This document shows, in pieces, positions 9,354 to 47,169 of a stretch of DNA of 64,000 nucleotides. The stretch is taken from contig CAJNYD010000035.1 of NCBI GenBank assembly GCA_905331295.1, positions 310,001-374,000 of the forward strand, given 5' to 3'. The notes beneath the pieces were generated by a model. It did no database searches, was not told the origin of the DNA, and saw only the letters and a program-made list of their open reading frames with translations. Within the stretch, counting starts at the first letter, position 1; every line of letters starts with the position of its first letter. The DNA comes from Rotaria socialis. Taxonomy: Eukaryota. A program made the translations under genes and the position numbers.

Positions 9354-10276
9354 TTAATTCATTTTCTTTGCGAGCTCTTTACATTTCCATAAATCCCACC
9401 AAGGTGCATATGGCCATCGATGATGTTCCCAATGATAATCAAAATGATAGCAACATAAAAAACTAACTAATCGATTTGCACTAGCTGATCTTGATTTTTC
9501 CCATGGCATCGCTTCGTCATATTTACCGTCGACTAACTCTGGCCGATGTGGAGTGTAAGTACCAAAATAAAATAAACGTAATGAACTACATAATCCACAT
9601 ATTAACATGTAGACAATAATATTCAGCAATGGAACAGAAAATACTACTTGAAGAGTAGTGACCCATACGGTCATTTTGTATAGCTGTTGTTTAGTAGTGT
9701 ATCCAATTAGAAAATGAGTATACCAAGCAAAAAATCCTATACACCGACCATCGTGATAATCAGGATCTTCATTGGCAAGACCAGTATGCTTATGATGTAG
9801 CCAATGTTTTTCATACATAATCCGATAATCAAACCAAGCATACGCAGACAAACATACATGACCGATAACATCATTTAATTGTCGATACTAAAATTCGATA
9901 TATTAAAAGGAGTTAAATTAGAAATTTGACCGTCTTATTGAGATAATAATACGAGACTTTCTACTCAATGTTGTTAACCTATATTATCTATCAATTTACC
10001 CTACACATTATTACTTAGTTCACTCACACGATTGCAAATTGCTCCATGCATAGCATCATGGCCAGCAATAAACAGGCCGGTGTATAAAAATTCCAAAATC
10101 AAAAATGTTCCGATGATATCGTACCAACTTGTTTTTGTAAAATTAATTTGAAATAAAGCATGATACCAACATAGAATAAAAGAACTGAGAATAAATAAAG
10201 CAATTATTAAGCCCTTAAAGTAATTTTTTGGTGGACAATAAAGTAATTTATAATCGTCAGTACTTTCACTTATCAT
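9354..10276 (-). CDS. crtW: Beta-carotene ketolase (CrtW/BKT, membrane di-iron desaturase superfamily), 260 aa; exons 10276-10028 and 9887-9354
   Basis: A 140-nt phase-0 intron (GTGAGT...TTTTAG) joins the two ORFs. Three His boxes HDAMH, HWLHH, HWEHH plus family motifs LYTGLFI, DPDYH, RLFYFGTYxPH, SFLCCYHFDYHWEHHRWPYAPWW. Confidence 0.93.
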
Positions 10277-10978
10277 CGTAAGCCAATGCTAAATATTATG
10301 CAAGGTTTACCGACAACATCTTTATCTTATATTTACTCAACTACAGCCGAGAACATATTCATGCCGCCATGTTTTTTTTTTGTCGAAGATTTGCTCGCTT
10401 CTTACAGCCATTTTGTTAGTACTACTAGTAAATTCAGAGCAGCTTGGTCGAGTTCGATGAAATTTTCTCGAATTTCTGAAAATCGTAAATAGATATAAAA
10501 AAAACATAGATAAAGAAACTATTTGACAGATGCCACTCTGAAAAAAACAATTTTCATTAGAATTTCGATCAAAAACGTTATTTTTTTAAAATTCTAATCG
10601 CAAAGAATTCTGATCATGAATTCCAATTCCACGTGCATTTACGTGAACGTGAAGTAAAGAACGCACGAGACACATAGTACTTTAGAAAAAAAAATATCAC
10701 CCTCCTAATTCGCGTGCATTGCGGCTTAATTTCTAGTGATAGTAATTCAACGTAGTAACAAATAATGTTGTCACAATGAGAAAAATCGAATTGATAGTCG
10801 AATTTCCAAGTTTTGCGCAGTAATGTTAAAATACGAAGAATGTTTGTATCTGGCGCCATCTACAAGTGTTGTTATCTGATTCGATTATCTCAAACGACCG
10901 TCCATGAAGCAAGTTTCTTTATTTCTATTGAATGATTTCTTCTTGCATAAGTTTGTCTATCTGTCATCTGCTACGATT

Positions 10979-12892: not shown

Positions 12893-12960
12893 ATAAAAGA
12901 GAAAAATATTTCCTTTTTTTGTTCTCCTGTCTATATATTGTCGTTTGTGATTTTTTTCAG

Positions 12961-13902
12961 ATGGGTAAATCAACAAAAGATAAACGAGATATTTATTATC
13001 GTCTGGCAAAAGAACAAGGCCTTCGAGCTCGATCAGCTTTTAAACTTTTACAGATTAACAGTGAATTTAATATTTTAAATGACAATGTGAAACGAGTTGT
13101 GGATCTTTGTGCTGCACCTGGTATGATGAATTTATTTTTAGAAGTAGTCCCGTGAATCCTTTAGTTTACCCTTATAGGAAGTTGGTCTCAAGTTCTTTCT
13201 CGAACTTTATACAAAACTGATTCAGTTGATGATCAAGTTAAAATCGTTGCTGTCGATTTGCAAACCATGGCTCCATTGCCTGGTGTTATACAAATTAAAG
13301 GTGATATAACGAAACGTTCAACAATCGAAGAAATTCTTGGTTGCTTCAAAACATCCGATAATCAAATGAATAAAGCCGATCTTGTTATATGTGATGGTGC
13401 ACCTGATGTAACAGGTTTACATGATATTGATGAGTTCGTTCAAGGGAATCTTGTTCTAGCTGCATTAAATATTTGTCTTCATGTTTTAAATGATAATGGT
13501 AATTTTGTATCGAAAATATTTCGTACAAAAAATATCGATCTACTTTATCAACAATTCAAATTATTTTTCGATGATGTTGTTATTGCTAAACCGCGTTCAT
13601 CAAGAAATTCATCTATTGAATCATTTATTGTTTGTCGACAATTTCATTTGCCGGATGATTTTACTCCGAATATAGACGAACCATTTATTTATGCCTACGA
13701 ACGCACATTAGATAAACAAGAAAATTCATCATTTATAATTCCATTTATTGCATGCGGCAGTTTAGATGGTTTTGATTCTGATAAAACCTATCCGCTAGAA
13801 CAAGATCAATCCTATATTGAACCAGTTCAACCGCCCATTCACCCAGCCTATGAAGAAGCTTGTGCTTTGAAAAAAAATAAAAAACTCCCAACATCTTCTT
13901 GA
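12961..13902 (+). CDS. FTSJ1: tRNA (C32/G34)-2'-O-methyltransferase Trm7/FTSJ1; one intron at ~13122-13177
   Basis: [84 protein letters not shown]. Confidence 0.96.
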
Positions 13903-13958
13903 TGATTGTTTTTCTTTGTTTGTGATCGAACGGTGTTTTTTCTCAATTTTCAGATAAA

Positions 13959-15183
13959 ATGAATGCACGATCACAAACATTTGAATTTGCAGTCGAAGGT
14001 CGACAAATAGACGAAGTTGTTTCTTGTATGTTTCATAGTATTTTATTTCATCGTTGTGTTGGAAAGGTTTGTTAGCAGTTTTTATTTATAAATGAAATTA
14101 CTCTTTGCTTTTCTTTTTTTTTCAAGTATCATACAAACGGTGAAGATAGTTATTCAGTTGGAACTTTAGGCTATACTGATGTCGACTGTGATTATATTGA
14201 TTTTACATATGTAAGCATTCTAAGCGTCCAATCATTACCTTCAGCGCTCAATTGCATACGTCGGAAGCAGAGCTACCAACTGTAATCTCGTTGAGTAAAC
14301 CTAATTCCATTGTATTGTTTCAATGATTAGCTTGCAATAAAATTGGCATCTCTTCGTGTTGATTGACTGCCATCACAATCTGTCTAAAACTAAATCAATC
14401 GACTATTTTCATAATGCTGCTTGTACAGAATATCTTATAATTTTCTTTGATTCCTATATCAGCTCGTTCGATAATAACATATTCTGAATTATCTGCAATG
14501 TTTTAGCTACAAGTAACTAGTCAAGAACTTCAACGTACTGTCGCTGAAAAGATTAATCAATTCCATGATAAACTTCGTTCGTCAGAGTCAAATCGCAGTG
14601 GACAGGTAATTGAAAAACGAAGGGAAAGCGCCGATTTCAAAACTTGTTTTTTCGAATAGATTACCCTGGAGTTTTATCAGAAGAAAAAATCTCGCTGGAT
14701 GTTTAAACCAGAAGAGATTCCATGGGAAATATGGACTATTAAAATTGAACAAATGCAATTATCCAGTGAAAATGGTATTTTTTTTTCGTTGATCTATGTG
14801 AAGATTTTCGAACTGTTTTTTTTTAGAACGACAATTTATGCGTGAAAAACTTTCTGATTCACTTACAGAACGTATTTTTCAAATAACTGAAATAATGTAA
14901 GAAAATAATTTCTTGAAACTTCTTCAACTAATGCATTATTTTTTGTTTTCAAGTAATAAACCTGATTATGTACCTAAACCACCTCATTTATCTGAACTCG
15001 ATTTAGTTTTTGATACATCATATACTGATATTCAACCATATTTATTTAAAGTAACTTACAATAATAAAATGCGAGTGTCGTTATTTTATTTCTCTTTTTT
15101 TCTAGATTCATTTTAGTGATTCACCAACCATTGTCAACCACATGAAAACAATGATTAAAGAAGCATTCAATACATCCCTCTAA
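13959..15183 (+). CDS. ATG101: Autophagy-related protein 101 (HORMA domain), multi-exon
   Basis: [112 protein letters not shown] 15181-15183. Confidence 0.93.
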
Positions 15184-15365
15184 ATAATCAATGAAAAAGC
15201 AAACCGCCATGATTATAAATACGTATATCATAACTTAATTTTCATTGTACTTCATTCTTTTTTTTTGCGATGTGTATATAAATATAAAATCTATATAAAT
15301 TTTTTCGAAGTCTTTTGTTTTCTCTTATCAAAGTTAACTGATTTTTCTTGAAATTTTAGATAATC

Positions 15366-16084
15366 ATGTTTCATCGTTCATCAAATTTCAATCGACTAAT
15401 CGTTGGATCCAATCAAATCATTCAGCCAATACGTGTGCGTACGTTGTTCAATAATGTTTTCCTTGTTGTTAATACTTTGTTTTTCTTATCCTTGTTGTCT
15501 ACTTTAGCGTGCTCGTATACCGTTTTGGGAATTTTTAAAAACAGCATTTCAAGCACGCTCAAATCCCGAAGCTAGCAATCACAGAAAACGTATTGGCGGT
15601 TTTCAACCGATGAAAGTTGAACTTCTGCCTAATCGAACATACTATTGGTGTTCATGCGGTTATGCACATCATCAAGTAAAAATCTCAATTTGCTCGTTTT
15701 CATTCTTTTTTGTAATGGTAAATAATGTCTCTATTGAAGGCTCTTTGCGATCAAGCATGTAAACAGTTGAGAGGCAATTTACGTCCATTAAAATTTACTT
15801 CATCAAAATTTCAAGTGGCTGAATTATGTATGTGTAAATCGACAGAGAGAGCTCCGTATTGTGATCAATCATGTCGCACTCGTTTTGTTGGTATGCAAAT
15901 GCGTATGGGCAATTCTGTCGAAGGAACATATTCGAATGTAAAAGAATTTCTTAATACAATACCGAAAGGTATTGATAATTATCGACAATTTGCTGCTGAT
16001 CGACAAGCTAAACTTGAACATACAGAACGTTTAAGAAAAAAAGTTGATGACGAAAAAAATAAAAAATTTTCTGAAGAAACATAA
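15366..16084 (+). CDS. CISD3/MiNT-like protein with two CDGSH-type Fe-S motifs, both His-to-Cys variants; exons 15366-15434, 15508-15675, 15740-16084
   Basis: Arg/Ser-rich acid-free N-terminus; PMKVELLPNRTYYWCSCGYAHHQ|ALCDQAC, linker LRPLKF, then LCMCKSTERAPYCDQSC; spacing C-x-C-x8-C-x3-[C] matches CDGSH domains. Confidence 0.85.
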
Positions 16085-16165
16085 ATCGATGAATGTTTTA
16101 TAAATAGAATTGATTATTTTTAGATGAACTAGTTTTTCTTTTATGAATCGTCAACATTCGAAATC

Positions 16166-17328
16166 ATGACAGATCGAAAGTAGGGACAACAAATTAAGGG
16201 GGAATTATTGTTTTTGATTTATTTTCCTTTAGAGCAAAACGATCACGCGTAATTCTTAATGATGGAACATGGGACTGCTCATTGTGTACATATAAAAATC
16301 CATGTGTAGCATTTCGATGTGAAATGTGTGATTCAAGAAAAGGAACAGCTACTCGGTAGGATACCGCAAAATATTAATATGATTCAGAGAGAAGTTTCCG
16401 TTTTTTATCCCTTGGAATACTCGGTGTTGTTGAAAAAAGAAAGCTGACAATGTTTGTTTTTTATGTATGCATTTAGAAAACCAAAACTTGTATTAAGCGG
16501 GCATGTTGAGCAATTGCCAAGATCGAAACGTAAAACCGATGACGATTATTCTTCTGATCCATCGACAACTGATGATACAGATGGTCAAGATGATGACGAC
16601 GATGATGATGAAGAATTCCAACACGAAGAACGTAAAAATATTCATTCGAATAATAATAATAATAATCATACACGACGATCATTTCCGAATGATCATTTCA
16701 ATGAAAGTATATCATCTCCAGCATCATCTACAACAACAACACGATCCTATCGGTCCGCTTCACCATCGTCATCATCAAAAATAAACGATCCTTCGAAAAT
16801 ATCAACAACTAAGAAACGACCAACCATTGGCTCATTATCCCGCTCAACCAAATCAATATCAATACCAATAACTAATAAAAAGCCTAATCATGAAAATGAC
16901 CAGAAAAAAATCATCAAACATCAATCATCAAAATCGAAAGATCCTAAACAAAGGCAATCGAACGATAATAATCAAAAAATTAAAGTAACGAGCAATGAAC
17001 GAAATAAGAAAAATGATGTACAGAAAAAAAAGTAAATTATAATTTTATTAAGTATTTCATTGGTAAATTGAATTTCATCTTTAGAAAAAAAATTAAACTA
17101 TCATCACTTTCGTCCATGTCGTCGTCGTCATCAACATCATCAAATTCGTCATCAACGCATACAACAACAACAATAACAGTTGATGGAGTTTCAGTTCGTA
17201 TTACGGAATTAGTTAACAATAAAAACGATTCCTTGACAACAAATGACACTTTTAATAATGGCAATAATCCATCAAGAGCTTCGTCATCATCACCAGCTGA
17301 TCAAAGTCGAAGTCAATCGGAAAAATAG
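16166..17328 (+). CDS. RYBP: RYBP/YAF2 family protein (RanBP2-type zinc finger; non-canonical PRC1 subunit)
   Basis: Exon 16233-16355 encodes WDCSLCTYKNPCVAFRCEMCDSRKGTATR|KPK; last exon has TITVDGVSVRITE resembling the RING1B-binding C-terminal hairpin; long low-complexity middle. RYBP versus YAF2 orthology cannot be resolved. Confidence 0.88.
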
Positions 17329-30830: not shown

Positions 30831-33800
30831 TTATTGTTTTTTCGTTATATAATTTATTTGAAGTCCATCAGGATAAATATATAGTGGTATTGATCGAACG
30901 CCTTTGTTAAGCTGTGGTTCTGTTGTTTTTATGAGAAGATATTCTTTTATTATTAATTTATATTTGTGTCTTTCTCTCAATCTGATTTGAAAGTTATGGT
31001 TATCAAACATGTGCCCGGTAGTAAGATAGTGTTTCACTATAGAAGATTTAGCTGTATTCTGTTGTGGCTGCTTTTCTTTTATTTCACAATTTTTTAATAG
31101 TGCGTCAATGTCTTCTTGGTTCATTATAATATTTGGCTTTGGAATTTACTGGTCTGTAATCTAGTAATCGGTCCTTTGCGTTCAATATTGGGTTTAAATA
31201 TGGATGGTTTTATTTTTGAGGTACGTTTTGATTTCTTAACTTTTTTCACACATAAATCGTTTTTTTGATCATTAATATGTTCATGTACACGTGTCTTAAG
31301 ATGTCTAAATGTTTTACCAATATATTTTATGCTACATTCTGGGCAAGTGGCTTCATAAACAACTCCTGATTGCATGTTTTCTGGAATTGGATCTTTCAAG
31401 GTAAAACTATCACCAACTCGTTCTTGAACATCATAGACAACTCTTATTTGTTTTAATGGATAATTCTTGGTAATAGTTGAGGTGATACGCTTTGTATAGA
31501 CTTGACTTAATGGTCCAAAATAAGGTATTCGAAGAACAACAGTATCAATAGTGAGTGCCGGTGGTGTTATAGGAGTAGTAGACTCATACATAAGATTAAG
31601 TTGACGCCTAATAATCGAATCCAGCTTCGAATTAGGGTATCCATTTCGAATTGCTAATGATCTTATTGATTTAAATTCACGATGTAGAACATTATATGAG
31701 GAACAAATCGTAATAGCTCTATACACCATCGTTGACAATGCGTTATACTTATAAATTTTTGGTACGAAGCTGCTCCATTTAGTAATAAGACCCGTGAATG
31801 TTGGTTTTCTATAAACTCGTGTTTGAAAACCTTCACCTGATTTGCGTTGTACCAGTACATCAAGAAATGGGAGTTTGTGTGTATATCGATCTTCTTCTTC
31901 ATAACTAAATTTAATACATGGATGATACTGATACAGAATATAAGAAATGCCCTTAATAGGCACTTTTGAGTCTACTAATACAAAAGTATCATCAACGTAG
32001 CGTTTCCAATAAATAATACCCATTTGATTAAAAGATGATAAATGTTTTCTCTCAAAATCTTGAAGAAAAATCTCAGCCAAAAGTGGAGTCAAAGGAGATC
32101 CCATTGGTACTCCATCTATTTGATCATATAATTCTCCATCAAAAAGAAAATGAGATTGACTTGTTGCTGAATCGAGTAAATCTTTTATATCTGATCGATT
32201 CATTGAAGGAGGTTTAATATTGCCATCACATAACTGTTTAAGAATTATGCCTATTGTCTCATCGAGTGGTACATTAGTATATAGATAGGGGTGTCACATT
32301 TAAATTTAAAAAAATTTATTAAATCGGGAAATAAATTTTCAAAAATTTAAATTTAAAATAAATTAAATTTTTTTTAAATGAAAAGTTAAATTTAAAATAA
32401 ATTTTAACTGAAAAAATTTTAATTTAATTAGATTTTAAATTTTGCATCATTTAAATTTAACTAAATTTAAATTAAATTGTTTGAAATTCAAATTAGTTGA
32501 ATTTTGAAAACTAATAGATAAAAATAGTTTTTGACTTGATTGCTACTATTTAAAGTCAAATTTGAGTGTGTTTCCTGTTTTCTAAAGTTAAAACTAGCCA
32601 TTCTTCTATGAATTGTGCTATTAAATATATTTTTATGAGTATCCCAGTCTTCTGAAGAAGAAAGATGACGGACCCTGCATAATCTGTAGAGAAATTTTGA
32701 CTATTATGAATAAATATTAACCTAAAATACTAGGTTTTCCTCTCATTTAGTATTTACTACTGTTAAAGTCACGTATTTCTCTCGTAGCAATCATGTGTAT
32801 CCATCCAAATAATTTATTAAATTTAAAATTTAAATTTAAAAAAATTATTAAATCAAGAAATAAATTTTCAAAAATTTAATTTAAATTAAATTTAAATTCT
32901 GAAAATTTAAATTTTATTCAAATTTAAATTTTTGTATCAGAAAAATTCAAATTTATTTTAAATTTAACTTGATAGAATTTAATTTAAAATTAAATTAACT
33001 TTTCACGAAGTTAAATTTAAATTAAATAAACTGTCAATTGACACCCCTATATATAGACTAGCAATATCAAAAGATACCATCTTATATTGAGACATAGGCT
33101 TAGGTAATGCCAGTAATTCTTTAACGAACGACAATGAATCACGGATCATATTCTTTTTTTTATGATGTTTGACAATATTTGTAACAGAGCTTTAGAAAGT
33201 CCATAGTTGAACGTCCCGATTGCTGAGAGCACTGGTCTAAGTGGAACATCCTTTTTATGTGTTTTTGGTAATCCGTAAAGACGTCCAGGAATAGAACCAG
33301 TAGGCTTTGCCATTACCCAAAATTGATCGGAAATGTGTCCTTCATCATGTAACCTATTCAACAACTTTGTTAATTTAGTTTCACGGGTAATTGTAAGATC
33401 ATCTGACAGACATTTAAATTTACTAGAATCATTAAGTATAACATGGATCTTTGATAAATACTCGCCTTTATTTAATAAAACAATTCCTCTGCCTTTATCG
33501 GGACGAATAACAATAATCGACTTGTCTTGTTTTAATTTTCCTAATATATTACGATATTTTTGTTGTTCAGCATTGATCCTATTTTGTATTTGTCCGAAAT
33601 GATAAGCATGAGAACGAAATGAATCAGTAATTGAACGTAGACTATTTGCCAATGTCAATTCTTTTGAAGTAATAACACGAACATCAGAATCAACAATTGT
33701 ATTTTTTTCCTTAAGTTCAGAAAACAGCTTCTTATGATGTTGAGAAATATCAGTAACTCGATGGAAAAAATTTTCAATATTACTAATAATGTTAATATCA

Positions 33801-34300
33801 TCAACCTTTCTAGGAATAAGACCGTAGTTTAAGCCATGCGCGAGACATTCAACTTCTTCATTTGATAATATACGGGAAGAGAGGTTCTTAACGACGTTAC
33901 CATCGACGGGATCAAATTTTCTATTAAGTTGTTCATGTCTACTCATCTTCTCTCTTAATTTGTTCTCCCTTTTATATAATACTGCACGTGAACGATCAAT
34001 AATATACTCCAAAACATGTTGAAATATAGTATCAGGTACACTATTTTTCAGTTCATCCAAAAACAAATAGTAATTTTTTTTCAGGATATTGAGGTATTTA
34101 TATTTTGAATTGATTTCAGCGTTCAGTAAACGTCTTTGACATTCCTTATAAGCTGACGAAAGTGAAAGCACCTTGTTCGCCGTTTTGAACCAAAGAAATT
34201 TCGGAATAACATCCTGAGATCGACAGTATTTGAGAAAATGTAGATCCATTAATAACGACTGAAAACGTTCATGAGCTCTTTTCGTATTATCATAAATCAT
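30831..34300 (-). mobile_element. Penelope-like retroelement (RT + GIY-YIG endonuclease), inactivated by frameshifts and a MITE insertion
   Basis: RPDKGRGIVLL, LYGLPKTHK-VPLRPVLS, MVSFDIASLY|TNVP, QIDGVPMGSPL, WKRYVDDTF, LPFLDV; GIY-YIG GVVYEATCPECSIKYIGKTFRHLKTRVHEH...EYLLIKTTEPQLN; frameshifts near 33155 (A run) and 31124. Confidence 0.93.
32286..33049. mobile_element. hAT-type MITE (764 bp) inserted in the RT coding region
   Basis: TIR TAGGGGTGTCA / TGACACCCCTA; 8-bp TSD TATATAGA at 32278-32285 and 33050-33057; subterminal arrays of AAATTTAAATTT. Confidence 0.92.
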
Positions 34301-34810
34301 TAAAAAATATTATGACTAAAATGATAATTTAAGTATCCACCGATATTTATATTCGATAATGCCATACTGAAAGCGGAAACGAAAACGAAAGAAATTAACC
34401 TCTCTAGCTTTAACTTATCCCAAAACTTACTTTTTCAGTAGTTTTCTGTGCGACAAAAATAATGCTATAATTGACAAAGACACATAAATGTCAAACAAAA
34501 AATCTTACTCCATAGGACATCATAAGCACAAATACTTTCTCAGTTATCAATCCGTACTGAAGCGACAATAAAATGGATAACGTCGAAACATCACTTTAAA
34601 CGTTCGAATCTAACCGACAGCAATGCGACCAACAACAGAAACACCATCTGCAACGCTACGCAAGAAGTGTTCATCATAACAATACGAACAACTCGTATAT
34701 CTATTCCCAAAATCGATAATACAATTCCTTCTAAACATTTTCAATCATATGATTTTTATTTTCTAGGTAACACACTACTCTTCAACTACAATCGAACAAC
34801 TAAAACCGAC

Positions 34811-43562: not shown

Positions 43563-46088
43563 TTAAGAGTTAATATGTTCAACTATTGATTGATTTGGAG
43601 AATTTGTTAACAGATATTCATCACTAAGTGTACCATCAGAGAATAAATTCAAAGATCGACCCGATGTTTTATCAAATATCCAATGGGTTACTTGAAGACC
43701 ATCAAAATCATAAACAGGATTATTTTGATGATACTTAACCGGTTGTTTATTTTGAAACGCTTGAATAGGCCAACGTCGATCATCACCATAGATATGTCGT
43801 AATGCAATTCGTCGGATTCCAAGTTGTTTAGCAATCTGTAAATATTCTTCAATTTGATAAACATTGTCTTCGGTTAATACACATGAAAGTTTAATTGGAA
43901 CATTGGATGCTTCTCTTAAAATAGCTTTTAAATTTGGCATTTGCTTAACACCATGAAGTTTGTAATAAGTTGTAGGATGAAAAGAATTTACAGATATAGT
44001 ACATGAATCGTACATACGAAATGTTTTCATTTTTGGTATTGCTAATAAACCATTTGTATGTAATGATATATGAACATTTGGCAAATCTTGACGTAAACGG
44101 TTTACTAATTTCTCTTCATATTTATAAAGTTGAGGATCAGTTCTTGTACCTGTTAAAATTATTTTTGATGTTTGAGTTTTTTTCATCAAAGAAATAAATT
44201 CATCCAGATTTTCAAGTGTTTCTTTACGTAAATTATTTGGAGTTTCTAATAATTGATGTCCAATACAAAATGGACACTTTTGATTACATGATCCAGAAAA
44301 TAAAATATTGCCAAATTCAAATGGTTTGGATGTATCAACACGCGCTAATGATGAAAATGAACGACGAATTTGATTCAGCGACTGTTGACTTTGTTGTAAA
44401 GTAAGTGTCGAAGTTGTTAATGACGCTGGCGGTTTAGGCTCTGGTACATTTGTTGCTGCTGCTCGACGACGAACTGGTATTGTTGTATCTGGGATTGGTT
44501 GAAATGGACTTTGACCTTCTTTTAATGCTTGAACAGGATCTACTAGAAATTGTTCTCCACCTTGTAAATGTAAAATATGATTTTTCACGGCTGGTGAATA
44601 AAACAGAGCTACAACACCACCGAAACATTGTTTACCAAGACTTGTCATTTGTAAGCGTTGTTCGTCTTGATTGTATATCATTAAGCCATGATCTGTAACG
44701 AATTTAAATTCAGTAGGAAATAATTCTTGTAACGACGTCTTAAAACAATCTTCAAATGCAATAAGATCAATACCACCATAGTAGAAACTAACTGATGCCA
44801 TTTTAGCAATAGCTGCTTCTCGTGATAGATGATAAAGATCTTGAACTGGAATACGATTTAATTCGACACTACGAATATATTGTTGTAATTTCTTAGTAAC
44901 AGCACCTAAATTATACGATAATGTATGGTGACTGAATGATTGGGCACCAAGACCAATACCGATATAGGGTATAGCTTTTCTAACACGTTTATCCAAATAA
45001 TCAGAACATCCAGAATTACCTTGAACACGAGAAAATGTATTTTTTCCTGTTAATCCAATGTAATTAGATTGATTTAATAATTGTCTTGATTGACCTTCTT
45101 GACGATTAATTTGATCGAGTTTAACACGATCAGCTAAATGTGCCATCAATGTACCTTTATATCTCATACGATATAAAGTTATATGTTCAGGTTGAAGATC
45201 AATTGTATCTTGAACAGTTTTTAACCATGGGTCATCGGTACGTGATGCACGTAATGGAAATCCATACATTAAATCAATGTTAAAACTTTTAAAACCTGCA
45301 TTACGAATATTTGTCACTGCTTGATAGATATAATCTGTCGATGCATTAGCATCATCACGATTCATGTCTTTTGCTTGACGAAAATCTGTTGTTTGTAAAC
45401 CCATTGATATACGACGAATACCCATATCGTAATATGCTTTCATTTTTTCAGGTTCGGCTGCAGCTATCTTTGGTGTTGTCTCAATGGATACTTCAGTTAG
45501 ATTCCAATTAGTTTGAAATTTCGATTCAACATGTTTCATTAATTTTTGAATATGTTCTATTTTAGCCATAGATGGTGTTCCACCACCAATATCAAATCCG
45601 ACTAGTTTTTTTGCTTTTGTATTTAATAAATTTGCATACATATCTAATTCGGTGTATAGTGCAGAGAAATAATTTGTTTGTATATCAACATTTTTGCCTT
45701 GTTTTGGATTGACAACTGTATATTCACAAAATTGACAGCGTGTTTGACAAAAAGGCACATGAGCATAGAGCATCATCTCTGGTAATGAACCGTAAGCTCC
45801 ATAATAGGCTGCTTGAATATCTTGTTGATCTCGAAGTCTTTTTACTCGATAAGGTCGAATAGTAGTGTTGTGAGCGATTGGAAATGCTGTATTACATATA
45901 TGATGATGTCGCATTCCTGCACGGAAAACATCGTCAGCTGCGTACTGTTTTTGATCGTCTTCAGTTGGTTGTTGCCATGTAAATGAAGAGGATTCTGTAG
46001 ATATAGACAATGAATGAAACTTTAAAGTAGAGATTGCTGTTGATTTAAGGAACCGATGTGAAAGATGGTGACCCGCAGTTGATAACAT
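43563..46088 (-). CDS. Intronless tandem radical SAM protein: HemN/HemW-like domain fused to a second radical SAM domain, 841 aa
   Basis: Domain 1: YAHVPFCQTRCQFC, DIGGGTPS, RISMGLQT, NIDLMYGFP, YIGIGLGAQS. Pro/Thr/Gln-rich linker. Domain 2: NILFSGSCNQKCPFCIG, LTGTRTDP, SLHTNGLL, ISVNSF. Two CxxxCxxC motifs. Confidence 0.92.
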   Translation of the reverse strand: MLSTAGHHLSHRFLKSTAISTLKFHSLSISTESSSFTWQQPTEDDQKQYAADDVFRAGMRHHHICNTAFPIAHNTTIRPYRVKRLRDQQDIQAAYYGAYGSLPEMMLYAHVPFCQTRCQFCEYTVVNPKQGKNVDIQTNYFSALYTELDMYANLLNTKAKKLVGFDIGGGTPSMAKIEHIQKLMKHVESKFQTNWNLTEVSIETTPKIAAAEPEKMKAYYDMGIRRISMGLQTTDFRQAKDMNRDDANASTDYIYQAVTNIRNAGFKSFNIDLMYGFPLRASRTDDPWLKTVQDTIDLQPEHITLYRMRYKGTLMAHLADRVKLDQINRQEGQSRQLLNQSNYIGLTGKNTFSRVQGNSGCSDYLDKRVRKAIPYIGIGLGAQSFSHHTLSYNLGAVTKKLQQYIRSVELNRIPVQDLYHLSREAAIAKMASVSFYYGGIDLIAFEDCFKTSLQELFPTEFKFVTDHGLMIYNQDEQRLQMTSLGKQCFGGVVALFYSPAVKNHILHLQGGEQFLVDPVQALKEGQSPFQPIPDTTIPVRRRAAATNVPEPKPPASLTTSTLTLQQSQQSLNQIRRSFSSLARVDTSKPFEFGNILFSGSCNQKCPFCIGHQLLETPNNLRKETLENLDEFISLMKKTQTSKIILTGTRTDPQLYKYEEKLVNRLRQDLPNVHISLHTNGLLAIPKMKTFRMYDSCTISVNSFHPTTYYKLHGVKQMPNLKAILREASNVPIKLSCVLTEDNVYQIEEYLQIAKQLGIRRIALRHIYGDDRRWPIQAFQNKQPVKYHQNNPVYDFDGLQVTHWIFDKTSGRSLNLFSDGTLSDEYLLTNSPNQSIVEHINS

Positions 46089-47169
46089 TTTTCAAAATTC
46101 GCTGTGTATTGAGCTGTTGCTTAGATTTTTATACCATAGAAAGTGTAATGGTGACGTGGGTATATTACACTTGAATGCTATTGCGCAATTGTGACTCAAT
46201 ATTCTCCTTGTGAAAGAAATACGTATCCGATCTGATTTAATTTAGACTACTAGAAGAAAAAGCAGAATTATATAGCGATGCTTTTACGTTGTGCAATAAC
46301 TTTGCCAACGTGTTATTCTAGTGATTCACCGTTAGTCATGAACCATACGACAGTTATCATTGAGTCACATATAAAATCAATGCTTTTGCTTTTTTTTTGG
46401 GGTCGAAGAAATGTACTATGTTATATTTCATCGATTACTGTCAATGTCAATATTTTCGTGCGCTCTCGGATAAATCCCATGATATTCAAGGCCAAGTGCA
46501 AAAGTAATAGTATGTGAGTCAATGAATTTGATTCTCTCAAATATCTATCGTTAGAAATTCATACATCGCAGCGCTTGTCAGGATTCCAGCGGAAAAATTA
46601 TTTGCGAAGGACGTTCTCCTCGGGATTTATCAGGACACTGCGATGCATGGTTGGAGTTCTCAATTTTTAATAGATTTTTTATTTCATAATAATAATATTT
46701 TTTATCTGTGAACTTTGATCAATTTATCTATCTATAAATATTTCATTTGACTGCTAGCATGCAGATTATGTCAGTCGTACCATGATACTCAAGAGAAAAA
46801 GACGTTTTCGCTTTTCTCGGCTCTACTTTTTATTTCATTATGTACTTAATCATTGCTGATTTTTGAAGTAAAATTTGTTTCTCACTTTATTTAAAAAAAG
46901 ACGCACGACGCTTATCGCGATATATATTATATATACTAATGTCATACTGATTACATGGACGGAGAGTCACAACAATAAACTTTTTCTTCGCTTTTATTTT
47001 CATCAGTAAAACTAATTCACGCACAGATTAATCGATATAATACGATCGTTTGATCATATATTAAATCCTACATCTTTTTATACGACTACAAATATTGTCA
47101 GAGTTTTCCATTCATCATGTCAACATTTAATAGTTAACGAATGAGTCACATTTTCAGGAGAAATCGAAC

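What the first reader, a model, noticed from the sequence alone, without database searches (positions are those of the whole stretch)
15508..15880. NEET/CISD3-like protein with natural His-to-Cys swaps in both CDGSH motifs
Seen after splicing: WCSCGYAHHQALCDQAC and LCMCKSTERAPYCDQSC, so CDG(S/T)H has become CDQ(A/S)C twice with spacing preserved. Known: NEET proteins are defined by labile 3Cys-1His [2Fe-2S] ligation, and engineered His-to-Cys mutants (mitoNEET H87C, MiNT H75C/H113C) stabilise the cluster, lower its potential and impair transfer. Inference: parallel change in both domains suggests selection for a non-releasing 4-Cys cluster (electron carrier, structural subunit or iron lock under oxidative stress). 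It also has a ~65-aa charged C-terminal extension.
Basis: partly seen in the sequence, partly recalled or inferred. Interest (0 to 1): 0.8.

Follow-up and report, generated by a model that had tools for sequence, protein, structure and literature searches.

The report
All-cysteine CISD3 of bdelloid rotifers
A spliced, expressed rotifer gene encodes a relative of the human iron-sulfur protein CISD3 in which both cluster-releasing histidines are naturally cysteines, as also in one tardigrade; it likely holds its iron-sulfur clusters fast instead of handing them on, and likely serves as a fixed part of a mitochondrial complex.

Summary
Confirmed. The 15675/15740 junction appears in 4 of 7 laid runs (3 studies). 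The 193-aa product is identical to a Rotaria socialis protein and folds like human CISD3/MiNT (Z 13.1). The fourth ligand is Cys in 33 of 33 (motif 1) and 69 of 69 (motif 2) bdelloid-type sequences; the HH pair varies and is not the ligand. The gene is under purifying selection (dN/dS 0.18), and its flanks are as conserved as the core or more. Single natural His-to-Cys swaps have been in print since 2011 (ciliates, copepods, bacteria). A double swap was not in that list; here it is fixed in Adineta and Rotaria and recurs in the tardigrade Ramazzottius. Single swaps occur in other tardigrades, Artemia, copepods and Folsomia; 50 of 59 named animal homologues keep both His. A His-His paralogue exists in Didymodactylos and Brachionus. 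Best reading (0.5): a duplicate with two locked 4-Cys [2Fe-2S] clusters that docks as an accessory subunit, like ciliate COXFS and mL107. Metal, localisation and partner are untested. A desiccation link is tempting, but non-desiccating Rotaria keep the swap. New variant of a known family.

The parts
15358..15359 (+). AG acceptor where a non-genomic leader is joined to this mRNA; also the poly(A) site of the upstream ATG101 mRNA
   Evidence: loose ends in X1: leader before and poly(A) behind 15358; leader also in X4
15360..15434 (+). exon 1 (ATG at 15366); basic, acid-free N-terminus, likely mitochondrial targeting peptide (inferred)
   Evidence: joint 15434>15508 in X1, X3; residues 1-30 hold 5 K/R and 0 D/E
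15435..15507 (+). intron 1, 73 nt GT..AG
   Evidence: table 5
15508..15675 (+). exon 2: conserved pre-core segment (residues 26-56) and first half of motif 1 (W70, C71, C73, Q79)
   Evidence: 27 of 31 pre-core positions invariant in 5 full-length orthologues
15676..15739 (+). intron 2, 64 nt GT..AG, phase 0, inside CDGSH motif 1
   Evidence: bridged in X1, X2, X3, X4; same position in genomic loci L001, L002, L004, L005, L008, L009, L011
15649..15760 (+). motif 1, C71-x-C73-x8-C82-D-Q-A-C86; His ligand position is Cys (TGT 15758-15760)
   Evidence: Cys in 33 of 33 covered sequences
15827..15874 (+). motif 2, C109-x-C111-x8-C120-D-Q-S-C124; His ligand position is Cys (TGT 15872-15874)
   Evidence: Cys in 69 of 69 covered sequences
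15875..16084 (+). 69-aa bdelloid-specific C-terminal extension: short amphipathic helices, then a long charged helix; no transmembrane segment; stop at 16082-16084
   Evidence: model of the A. steineri orthologue, helix 157-192; highest 19-residue hydropathy in the whole protein 0.35; no relative outside bdelloid-type sequences
16122..16123 (+). poly(A) site of this mRNA; also the leader acceptor of the next gene (RanBP-type zinc finger)
   Evidence: loose ends in X1; Pfam PF00641

Best explanation
This is a spliced, expressed CISD3/MiNT-type gene of bdelloid rotifers whose two cluster sites each have four cysteines; the protein likely sits in mitochondria, likely binds two stable, non-releasing [2Fe-2S] clusters, and likely docks through its conserved flanks as an accessory subunit of a matrix-facing complex. 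Shown: gene structure, expression, eight Cys, fixation in Adineta and Rotaria, purifying selection, MiNT fold of the predicted model, a His-His paralogue in Didymodactylos and two in Brachionus. From known chemistry: the His makes NEET clusters labile; His-to-Cys locks them and lowers the potential from about 0 to about -300 mV. Inferred: the gene is a second paralogue (probably the counterpart of the short Brachionus one) that was free to cross the two-base His-to-Cys path twice, gave up cluster donation, and uses the clusters mainly to hold the fold while the new flanks bind a partner, as ciliate COXFS (complex IV) and mL107 (mitoribosome) do. The partner is not identified; complex IV or the mitoribosome are the candidates by analogy only.
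For: Fold: 6avj Z 13.1, rmsd 1.8 A over 86 residues; 3tbn Z 13.0; 7w5z_FS 11.1; 9fq7_4T 10.9; 6z1p_AV 10.0; next row 5.2. Ligand spacing unchanged; type 5/6 residues W, Q, K of Lin 2011 kept. All three solved natural CDGSH chains that have lost a His at the ligand position are fixed subunits of complex IV or the mitoribosome; mL107 is reported with two iron-sulfur clusters (PMC7326499 passage) and COXFS with two Fe-S clusters far from the electron path (PMC10263302). Toxoplasma ApiCox13 H49/85C stays red, binds iron and fully complements growth and respiration, so a double 4-Cys form works in a structural role. Flanks: 27 of 31, 25 of 38 and 14 of 23 positions invariant against 42 of 71 in the core (5 orthologues); dN/dS 0.11, 0.19 and 0.21 (6 loci). 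Long stem (2.15) then short tips (<0.1) on the tree: fast change, then strong constraint. His-His paralogue P0244 groups with Brachionus P0262 (100/98).
Against: No metal analysis, localisation or partner data. No transmembrane helix, unlike COXFS and ApiCox13. The extension has no known relative. A His-His paralogue was not seen for Rotaria or Adineta themselves (120 of 359 hits listed; genome not held), and no Cys-Cys protein named Didymodactylos was seen, so both copies are not shown in one bdelloid genome. Orthology is soft: with the mixture model the AU test did not reject grouping with the long His-His paralogue (p 0.126) or Ramazzottius (p 0.096), though LG+G4 did (p 0.004, 0.038). Motif 1 has also lost S/T and P, and both motifs lost G, so the sites may have changed more than the ligand. 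Perkinsus Cox13 is predicted to bind zinc (PMC12350165). His-to-Cys also occurs in animal CISD3s that have no such extension (tardigrades, Artemia, Folsomia).
Confidence: 0.5

Rival explanations
1. Stress-proofed CISD3: selection locked the clusters so that they do not shed iron during drying, rehydration or irradiation; the protein stays a soluble redox or iron-holding factor, and tardigrades and Artemia converged on the same fix.
For: Both named animal lineages with a double swap (bdelloids, Ramazzottius) are extremotolerant groups; three of five named swap lineages (bdelloids, tardigrades, Artemia) are anhydrobiotic. Oxidised human CISD3 loses clusters and unfolds with H2O2 or NO (PMC10937110 passages). 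At least 4 changes per motif on the animal trees.
Against: R. socialis and R. magnacalcarata are non-desiccating (PMC7943196) yet keep both Cys. Copepods and Folsomia candida carry a swap and are not anhydrobiotic (recalled). Desiccating Didymodactylos keeps a His-His copy. No sequences of Polypedilum or anhydrobiotic nematodes were retrieved. The search profiles were seeded with Cys variants. The gene sits among housekeeping genes. No expression data under stress were found.
Confidence: 0.2
2. Ferredoxin-like electron carrier: two low-potential 4-Cys clusters shuttle electrons to a partner enzyme bound by the extension.
For: His-to-Cys moves the potential to near -300 mV, close to ferredoxins (PMC6006223); human CISD3 clusters are redox-coupled.
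Against: No partner, no fusion and no linked redox gene in the conserved neighbourhood; the core is basic (pI about 9), unlike acidic ferredoxins (recalled).
Confidence: 0.1
3. Zinc site: the four cysteines bind Zn2+ and the domain is a purely structural double zinc finger.
For: Cys4 is a common zinc set; marine alveolate Cox13 homologues are predicted to use zinc (PMC12350165); G, P and S/T of the consensus are partly lost.
Against: Perkinsus Cox13 lost the third Cys and re-spaced its ligands, whereas here the spacing equals that of MiNT H75C/H113C (6avj) and of COXFS motif 1, which hold Fe-S; engineered double mutants stay red.
Confidence: 0.1
4. Tolerated drift: cluster release is not needed for tandem CISDs in many lineages, so His and Cys are interchangeable and the double swap has no special role.
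For: Swaps recur in bacteria, protists and animals of unlike ecology; the Toxoplasma double mutant has no phenotype.
Against: No reversion in 33 and 69 bdelloid sequences; CAY to TGY needs two base changes through a non-ligating codon (standard code); G of CDG is lost in 10 of 15 swap motifs picked one per lineage, against 83 of 532 His motifs, which suggests remodelling; 50 of 59 named animal proteins keep both His.
Confidence: 0.1

Closest known systems
Human CISD3/MiNT (type 6 tandem CDGSH); PDB 6AVJ carries Cys at both His positions (engineered)
   Same: Two tandem motifs with identical ligand spacing; same fold (Z 13.1, 41% identity); likely matrix targeting peptide
   Different: Natural Cys at both sites; CDG becomes CDQ/E/K; motif 1 lacks S/T and P; conserved 31-aa pre-core segment and 69-aa C-terminal extension; the human protein donates clusters to NDUFV2 (PMC11145280 passages), which a 4-Cys form would not be expected to do
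Tetrahymena COXFS (7W5Z chain FS) / Toxoplasma ApiCox13 / Perkinsus Cox13, complex IV subunits
   Same: Tandem CDGSH with lineage-specific flanks; COXFS has a natural Cys in motif 1 with gap-free alignment; Z 11.1 and 10.9
   Different: They have a C-terminal transmembrane helix and COXFS keeps His in motif 2; the rotifer protein has no such helix and no shown complex
Tetrahymena mL107 (6Z1P chain AV), mitoribosomal subunit
   Same: Tandem CDGSH, Cys in place of His in motif 2, reported with two Fe-S clusters; no membrane anchor seen in the aligned part; Z 10.0
   Different: One-residue insertion before the Cys, His kept in motif 1, unrelated flanks; no evidence of orthology
Ramazzottius varieornatus GAV02131.1 (P0104), uncharacterised
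   Same: Natural Cys at both ligand positions
   Different: Nested among tardigrade proteins with a single swap (99/96), lacks the extension; very likely an independent origin
'Degenerate' type 5/6 CISDs of Lin et al. 2011 (PMC3174974)
   Same: Natural His-to-Cys at the fourth ligand, proposed there to still bind [2Fe-2S]
   Different: All primed entries read (File S5 parts 7-8 of 8) change one motif only

Membership tests
Type 6 tandem CDGSH (CISD3/MiNT-like) fold family | two motifs about 20 residues apart in one chain | tested here: met
   C86 to C109, 22 residues between; gap-free alignment to 6avj
Type 6 tandem CDGSH (CISD3/MiNT-like) fold family | MiNT/MmCISD pseudo-dimeric fold | tested here: met
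   predicted model of orthologue P0006, core pLDDT about 90; Z 13.1 and 13.0 to 6avj and 3tbn; Foldseek E 8.8e-9
Type 6 tandem CDGSH (CISD3/MiNT-like) fold family | type-specific Trp, Gln (motif 1), Lys (motif 2) and lid prolines (Lin 2011) | tested here: met
   W70, Q79, K112 kept; second lid Pro invariant in 5 orthologues, first is Pro here but Ser in 2 of 5
Pfam zf-CDGSH PF09360 | score at or above gathering cut-off 29.5 bits | tested here: not met
   21.6 bits for P0232, 28.1 for P0006; His-His paralogue P0244 scores 64.8 and Ramazzottius 45.1
NEET proteins in the strict sense | consensus C-X-C-X2-(S/T)-X3-P-X-C-D-G-(S/A/T)-H with 3Cys-1His ligation | tested here: not met
   His is Cys and Gly is Gln in both motifs; motif 1 also lacks S/T and P (consensus from PMC5859297)
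NEET proteins in the strict sense | binds [2Fe-2S] clusters | not testable with these tools
   inferred from spacing and engineered mutants
NEET proteins in the strict sense | labile, transferable cluster | not testable with these tools
   predicted absent
CISD3 orthologues | mitochondrial matrix location | tested here: inconclusive
   basic, acid-free, variable N-terminus; no targeting predictor or localisation data
ApiCox13/COXFS complex IV subunits | C-terminal transmembrane helix | tested here: not met
   highest 19-residue Kyte-Doolittle mean 0.35
ApiCox13/COXFS complex IV subunits | member of complex IV | not testable with these tools
   no proteomic or structural data for rotifers seen
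mL107 mitoribosomal protein | bound to the mitoribosome; orthology to ciliate mL107 | tested here: inconclusive
   82-column tree unresolved; binding not testable

The most novel reading that the evidence does not exclude
Desiccation-tolerant animals (bdelloids, tardigrades, Artemia) repeatedly converted the labile His ligand of mitochondrial CISD3 to Cys, twice reaching a fully locked form, to stop iron release during drying and rehydration; in bdelloids the locked copy also became a new Fe-S subunit of a respiratory complex or the mitoribosome, not known so far in animals.
Probability: 0.18. Interest if true: 0.85.

Novelty: new variant of a known kind. Interest (0 to 1): 0.56.

Why it matters
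Cluster lability through the His ligand is held to be the point of NEET proteins, and CISD3 is proposed to donate clusters to complex I. A conserved animal CISD3 with neither His is a natural version of the engineered dead-for-transfer mutant. With the His-His paralogues and the tardigrade series (His-Cys, Cys-Cys), it lets one test directly whether CISD3 works by releasing clusters, by redox or as a structural part, and whether locking Fe-S clusters is part of desiccation tolerance. It also flags a possible animal counterpart of the Fe-S accessory subunits seen in alveolate mitochondria.

Tried and rejected
Alternative splice forms that remove motif 1: none seen in RNA. His77/His78 as ligand: rejected; the five residues read YAQHQ 18, YAHHQ 4, YAIRQ, YAHRQ and YANHQ once each, so neither His is invariant. 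RNA editing of the Cys codons: no differences in X1. A real ATG101-CISD fusion (NCBI 361-386 aa models): rejected, as separate poly(A) and leader ends exist and the same species have separate 193- and 216-aa models. Horizontal origin: neither shown nor excluded; monophyly of the animal rows not rejected (p 0.72); no phage match. My first guess that all animal swaps are in anhydrobiotes: broken by copepods and Folsomia. First fold with 8 sequences was unusable (pLDDT 40). Homologues of the extension: none by HMMER over representatives, PDB sequence, atlas; fold matches only generic helices at Z up to 5.2; these blanks show no novelty. Searching this genome for a canonical CISD3 was impossible (no genome held). 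Stress expression: the one supplement held for PMC10809525 has no CDGSH entry; its other supplements were not held and may bear on this. Lipper 2018 (MiNT structure) was not held. The raw Gly/Cys association (8 of 48 vs 449 of 532) is inflated by related copepod rows; the per-lineage count is used instead.

Full report
1. Observation. The window is AT-rich eukaryotic DNA with short introns. Joining 15366-15434, 15508-15675 and 15740-16084 gives 193 aa, identical to the NCBI Rotaria socialis protein P0319 and 5-6 differences from R. magnacalcarata. The intron inside motif 1 is bridged by spliced contigs in 4 of 7 runs laid (X1, X2, X3; X4; three studies); X5, X6 and X7 do not show it. The four runs are RNA by the tool's guess, but they are spliced and X1 has poly(A); X1 may be the source study. 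The eight cysteines are C71, C73, C82, C86 and C109, C111, C120, C124.

2. Conservation in bdelloids. Among 71 distinct bdelloid-type proteins held (named Adineta steineri, R. socialis, R. magnacalcarata, R. sordida, Rotaria sp. Silwood1 and 2, plus unnamed metagenome rows, many partial), the fourth ligand is Cys in 33 of 33 that cover motif 1 and 69 of 69 that cover motif 2. His77 and His78 both vary, so they do not replace the ligand. The intron lies at the same place in seven genomic loci. Over six non-redundant loci dN/dS is 0.18 (pre-core 0.11, core 0.21, extension 0.19; L003 and L009 dropped as duplicates of L008). In five full-length orthologues 27 of 31 pre-core, 42 of 71 core, 25 of 38 proximal and 14 of 23 distal extension positions are invariant. 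The first ~25 residues vary, are basic and lack acids, as expected of a targeting peptide (inference). There is no transmembrane stretch.

3. Fold. A model of the A. steineri orthologue from a 146-row alignment has core pLDDT about 90 and a long C-terminal helix, 157-192. It matches human MiNT 6avj (Z 13.1, rmsd 1.8 A, 86 residues), MmCISD 3tbn (13.0), Tetrahymena COXFS (11.1), Perkinsus Cox13 (10.9) and Tetrahymena mL107 (10.0); the next row is 5.2 (Foldseek agrees). The extension has no recognisable relative. Pfam PF09360 is hit below its cut-off.

4. How unusual is the swap? Of the 150 best cluster representatives, 105 are plain His-His pairs and 12 non-bdelloid rows carry Cys at a ligand position; one of these, Ramazzottius varieornatus GAV02131.1, has it in both motifs. 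By eye, the second motif pair of the unnamed 462-aa P0122 also has two Cys. Of 120 listed hits (359 found) of a second profile, 99 are His-His, 9 Cys-His, 6 Cys-Cys, 4 His-Cys, and 2 were not cleanly scored. Among 59 named animal proteins that I picked (one partial row left out), 50 are His-His; Cys occurs in bdelloids (both motifs), Ramazzottius (both), Hypsibius, Paramacrobiotus and Artemia (motif 2), Eurytemora and Folsomia (motif 1). Both profiles were seeded with Cys variants, so these are not unbiased frequencies. Trees built without the two ligand columns need at least 4 changes per motif among animals. Ramazzottius nests among single-swap tardigrades (99/96), apart from the bdelloid clade, which has a stem of 2.15 and tips under 0.1.

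5. Paralogues. Brachionus has a long and a short His-His CISD3, and the bdelloid Didymodactylos has a His-His protein that groups with the long one (100/98). The Cys-Cys clade groups with the short one in the 25-row mixture tree (85/86, not starred). Grouping it with the long paralogue was rejected under LG+G4 (p 0.004) but not under the mixture model (p 0.126); with Ramazzottius p 0.038 and 0.096; with all tardigrades p 0.14. With 82-100 columns these trees are weak. A His-His copy in Rotaria or Adineta was not seen, and the genome could not be searched.

6. What is known (passages read unless stated). Consensus and 3Cys-1His definition: PMC5859297, PMC5311916, PMC11138216. His-to-Cys stabilises NEET clusters and lowers the potential towards -300 mV: PMC6006223. 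Natural single swaps: PMC3174974 text and File S5 parts 7-8 of 8 (copepod Lepeophtheirus, ciliates, Geobacter, Pseudomonas; none with both motifs changed; a motif search of the whole file is incomplete because alignment gaps break motifs). ApiCox13 H49/85C stays red and fully complements: PMC10263302 (passages and section 11). mL107 with two clusters: PMC7326499. COXFS named as CDGSH domain: PMC10060162. Zinc predicted for Perkinsus Cox13: PMC12350165. Human CISD3 donates clusters to NDUFV2: PMC11145280; oxidised CISD3 is destroyed by H2O2 and NO, Em about -31 mV: PMC10937110. R. socialis and R. magnacalcarata are non-desiccating: PMC7943196. I found no paper on a natural double swap or on rotifer or tardigrade CISD3, but only 15 of 1,870 and 40 of 1,911 rows of the two broad searches were listed and subscription journals are missing.

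7. Mechanism. Shown: gene, splicing, eight Cys, constraint on ligands and flanks, predicted fold. From known chemistry: four Cys at this spacing bind a stable low-potential [2Fe-2S] cluster in engineered MiNT and ApiCox13. Inferred: the protein no longer donates clusters. His to Cys needs two base changes (standard code), easiest in a spare copy. Flanks more conserved than the metal domain point to a binding surface. The solved natural His-less CDGSH chains are all fixed subunits of mitochondrial machines. I therefore favour a locked-cluster accessory subunit (0.5). Rivals: stress-proofing for desiccation (0.2; attractive from Ramazzottius, Artemia and the H2O2 lability of CISD3, weakened by non-desiccating Rotaria, copepods and Folsomia), electron carrier (0.1), zinc (0.1), tolerated drift (0.1). 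The first two are not exclusive.

8. Context. The gene lies in the conserved order FtsJ-type methyltransferase, ATG101, this gene, RanBP-type zinc finger protein. In X1 the upstream poly(A) site and this gene's leader acceptor coincide at 15358, and again at 16122 for the next gene; a leader is also seen at 13952. The leader's searched core is absent from the window; that it is the rotifer spliced leader is recalled, and PMC2481426 lists rotifer trans-splicing as known and operons as not determined in 2008. This packing explains the fused ATG101-CISD gene models in NCBI.

9. Verdict. Real, conserved and expressed. It works like a tandem CDGSH protein but fails the strict NEET definition. Single swaps are known; the natural double swap, its fixation in bdelloids and its recurrence in a tardigrade appear undescribed. 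New variant of a known kind; interest 0.56.

Noticed in passing
window 12958-17031 (+): Operon-like run without spacers: FtsJ-type methyltransferase, ATG101, the CISD gene and a RanBP zinc-finger gene, preceded by MFAP1. Non-genomic leader at 13952, 15358 and 16122; poly(A) of the upstream mRNA at the same base as the next acceptor at 15358 and 16122. Order conserved in L001, L008, L009, L011 and in part in the other loci. RNA-level support for leader-resolved operons in bdelloids.
   Followed up: partly
L003 1-1391: Intronless contig that starts with the leader's last letters and runs through spliced ATG101 into the spliced CISD gene: a possible unresolved dicistronic RNA, or an assembly join.
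   Followed up: partly
proteins P0232, P0259, P0322, P0328, P0332, P0334: NCBI models of Rotaria and Adineta fuse ATG101 to this gene (361-386 aa); an annotation artefact of the tight packing.
   Followed up: yes
window 15435-15507: Run X2 uses a donor 4 nt further on (15438>15508), which would shift the frame; one contig at depth 4.2.
   Followed up: no
proteins P0104, P0210, P0214, P0103, P0112: Tardigrade CISD3 series: His-Cys in Hypsibius and Paramacrobiotus, Cys-Cys in Ramazzottius and an unnamed relative.
   Followed up: partly
proteins P0269, P0271, P0275, P0284, P0286: Copepod-type CISD3s share Cys in motif 1, a one-residue insertion and a conserved C-terminal tail.
   Followed up: no
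all Cys-swapped motifs: The Gly of CDG is kept in only 5 of 15 swap motifs picked one per lineage, against 449 of 532 His motifs: ligand and Gly seem to change together.
   Followed up: partly
window 9357-10288 (-): Expressed fatty acid desaturase family gene (PF00487; contigs) that looks like a carotenoid ketolase or hydroxylase type (recalled), possibly of foreign origin.
   Followed up: no
window 31127-34309 (-): Two long open frames (389 and 387 aa) that look like a Penelope-type retroelement by recalled motifs.
   Followed up: no
window 43566-46091 (-): An 842-codon uninterrupted open frame, unusual among short-exon genes; not identified.
   Followed up: no
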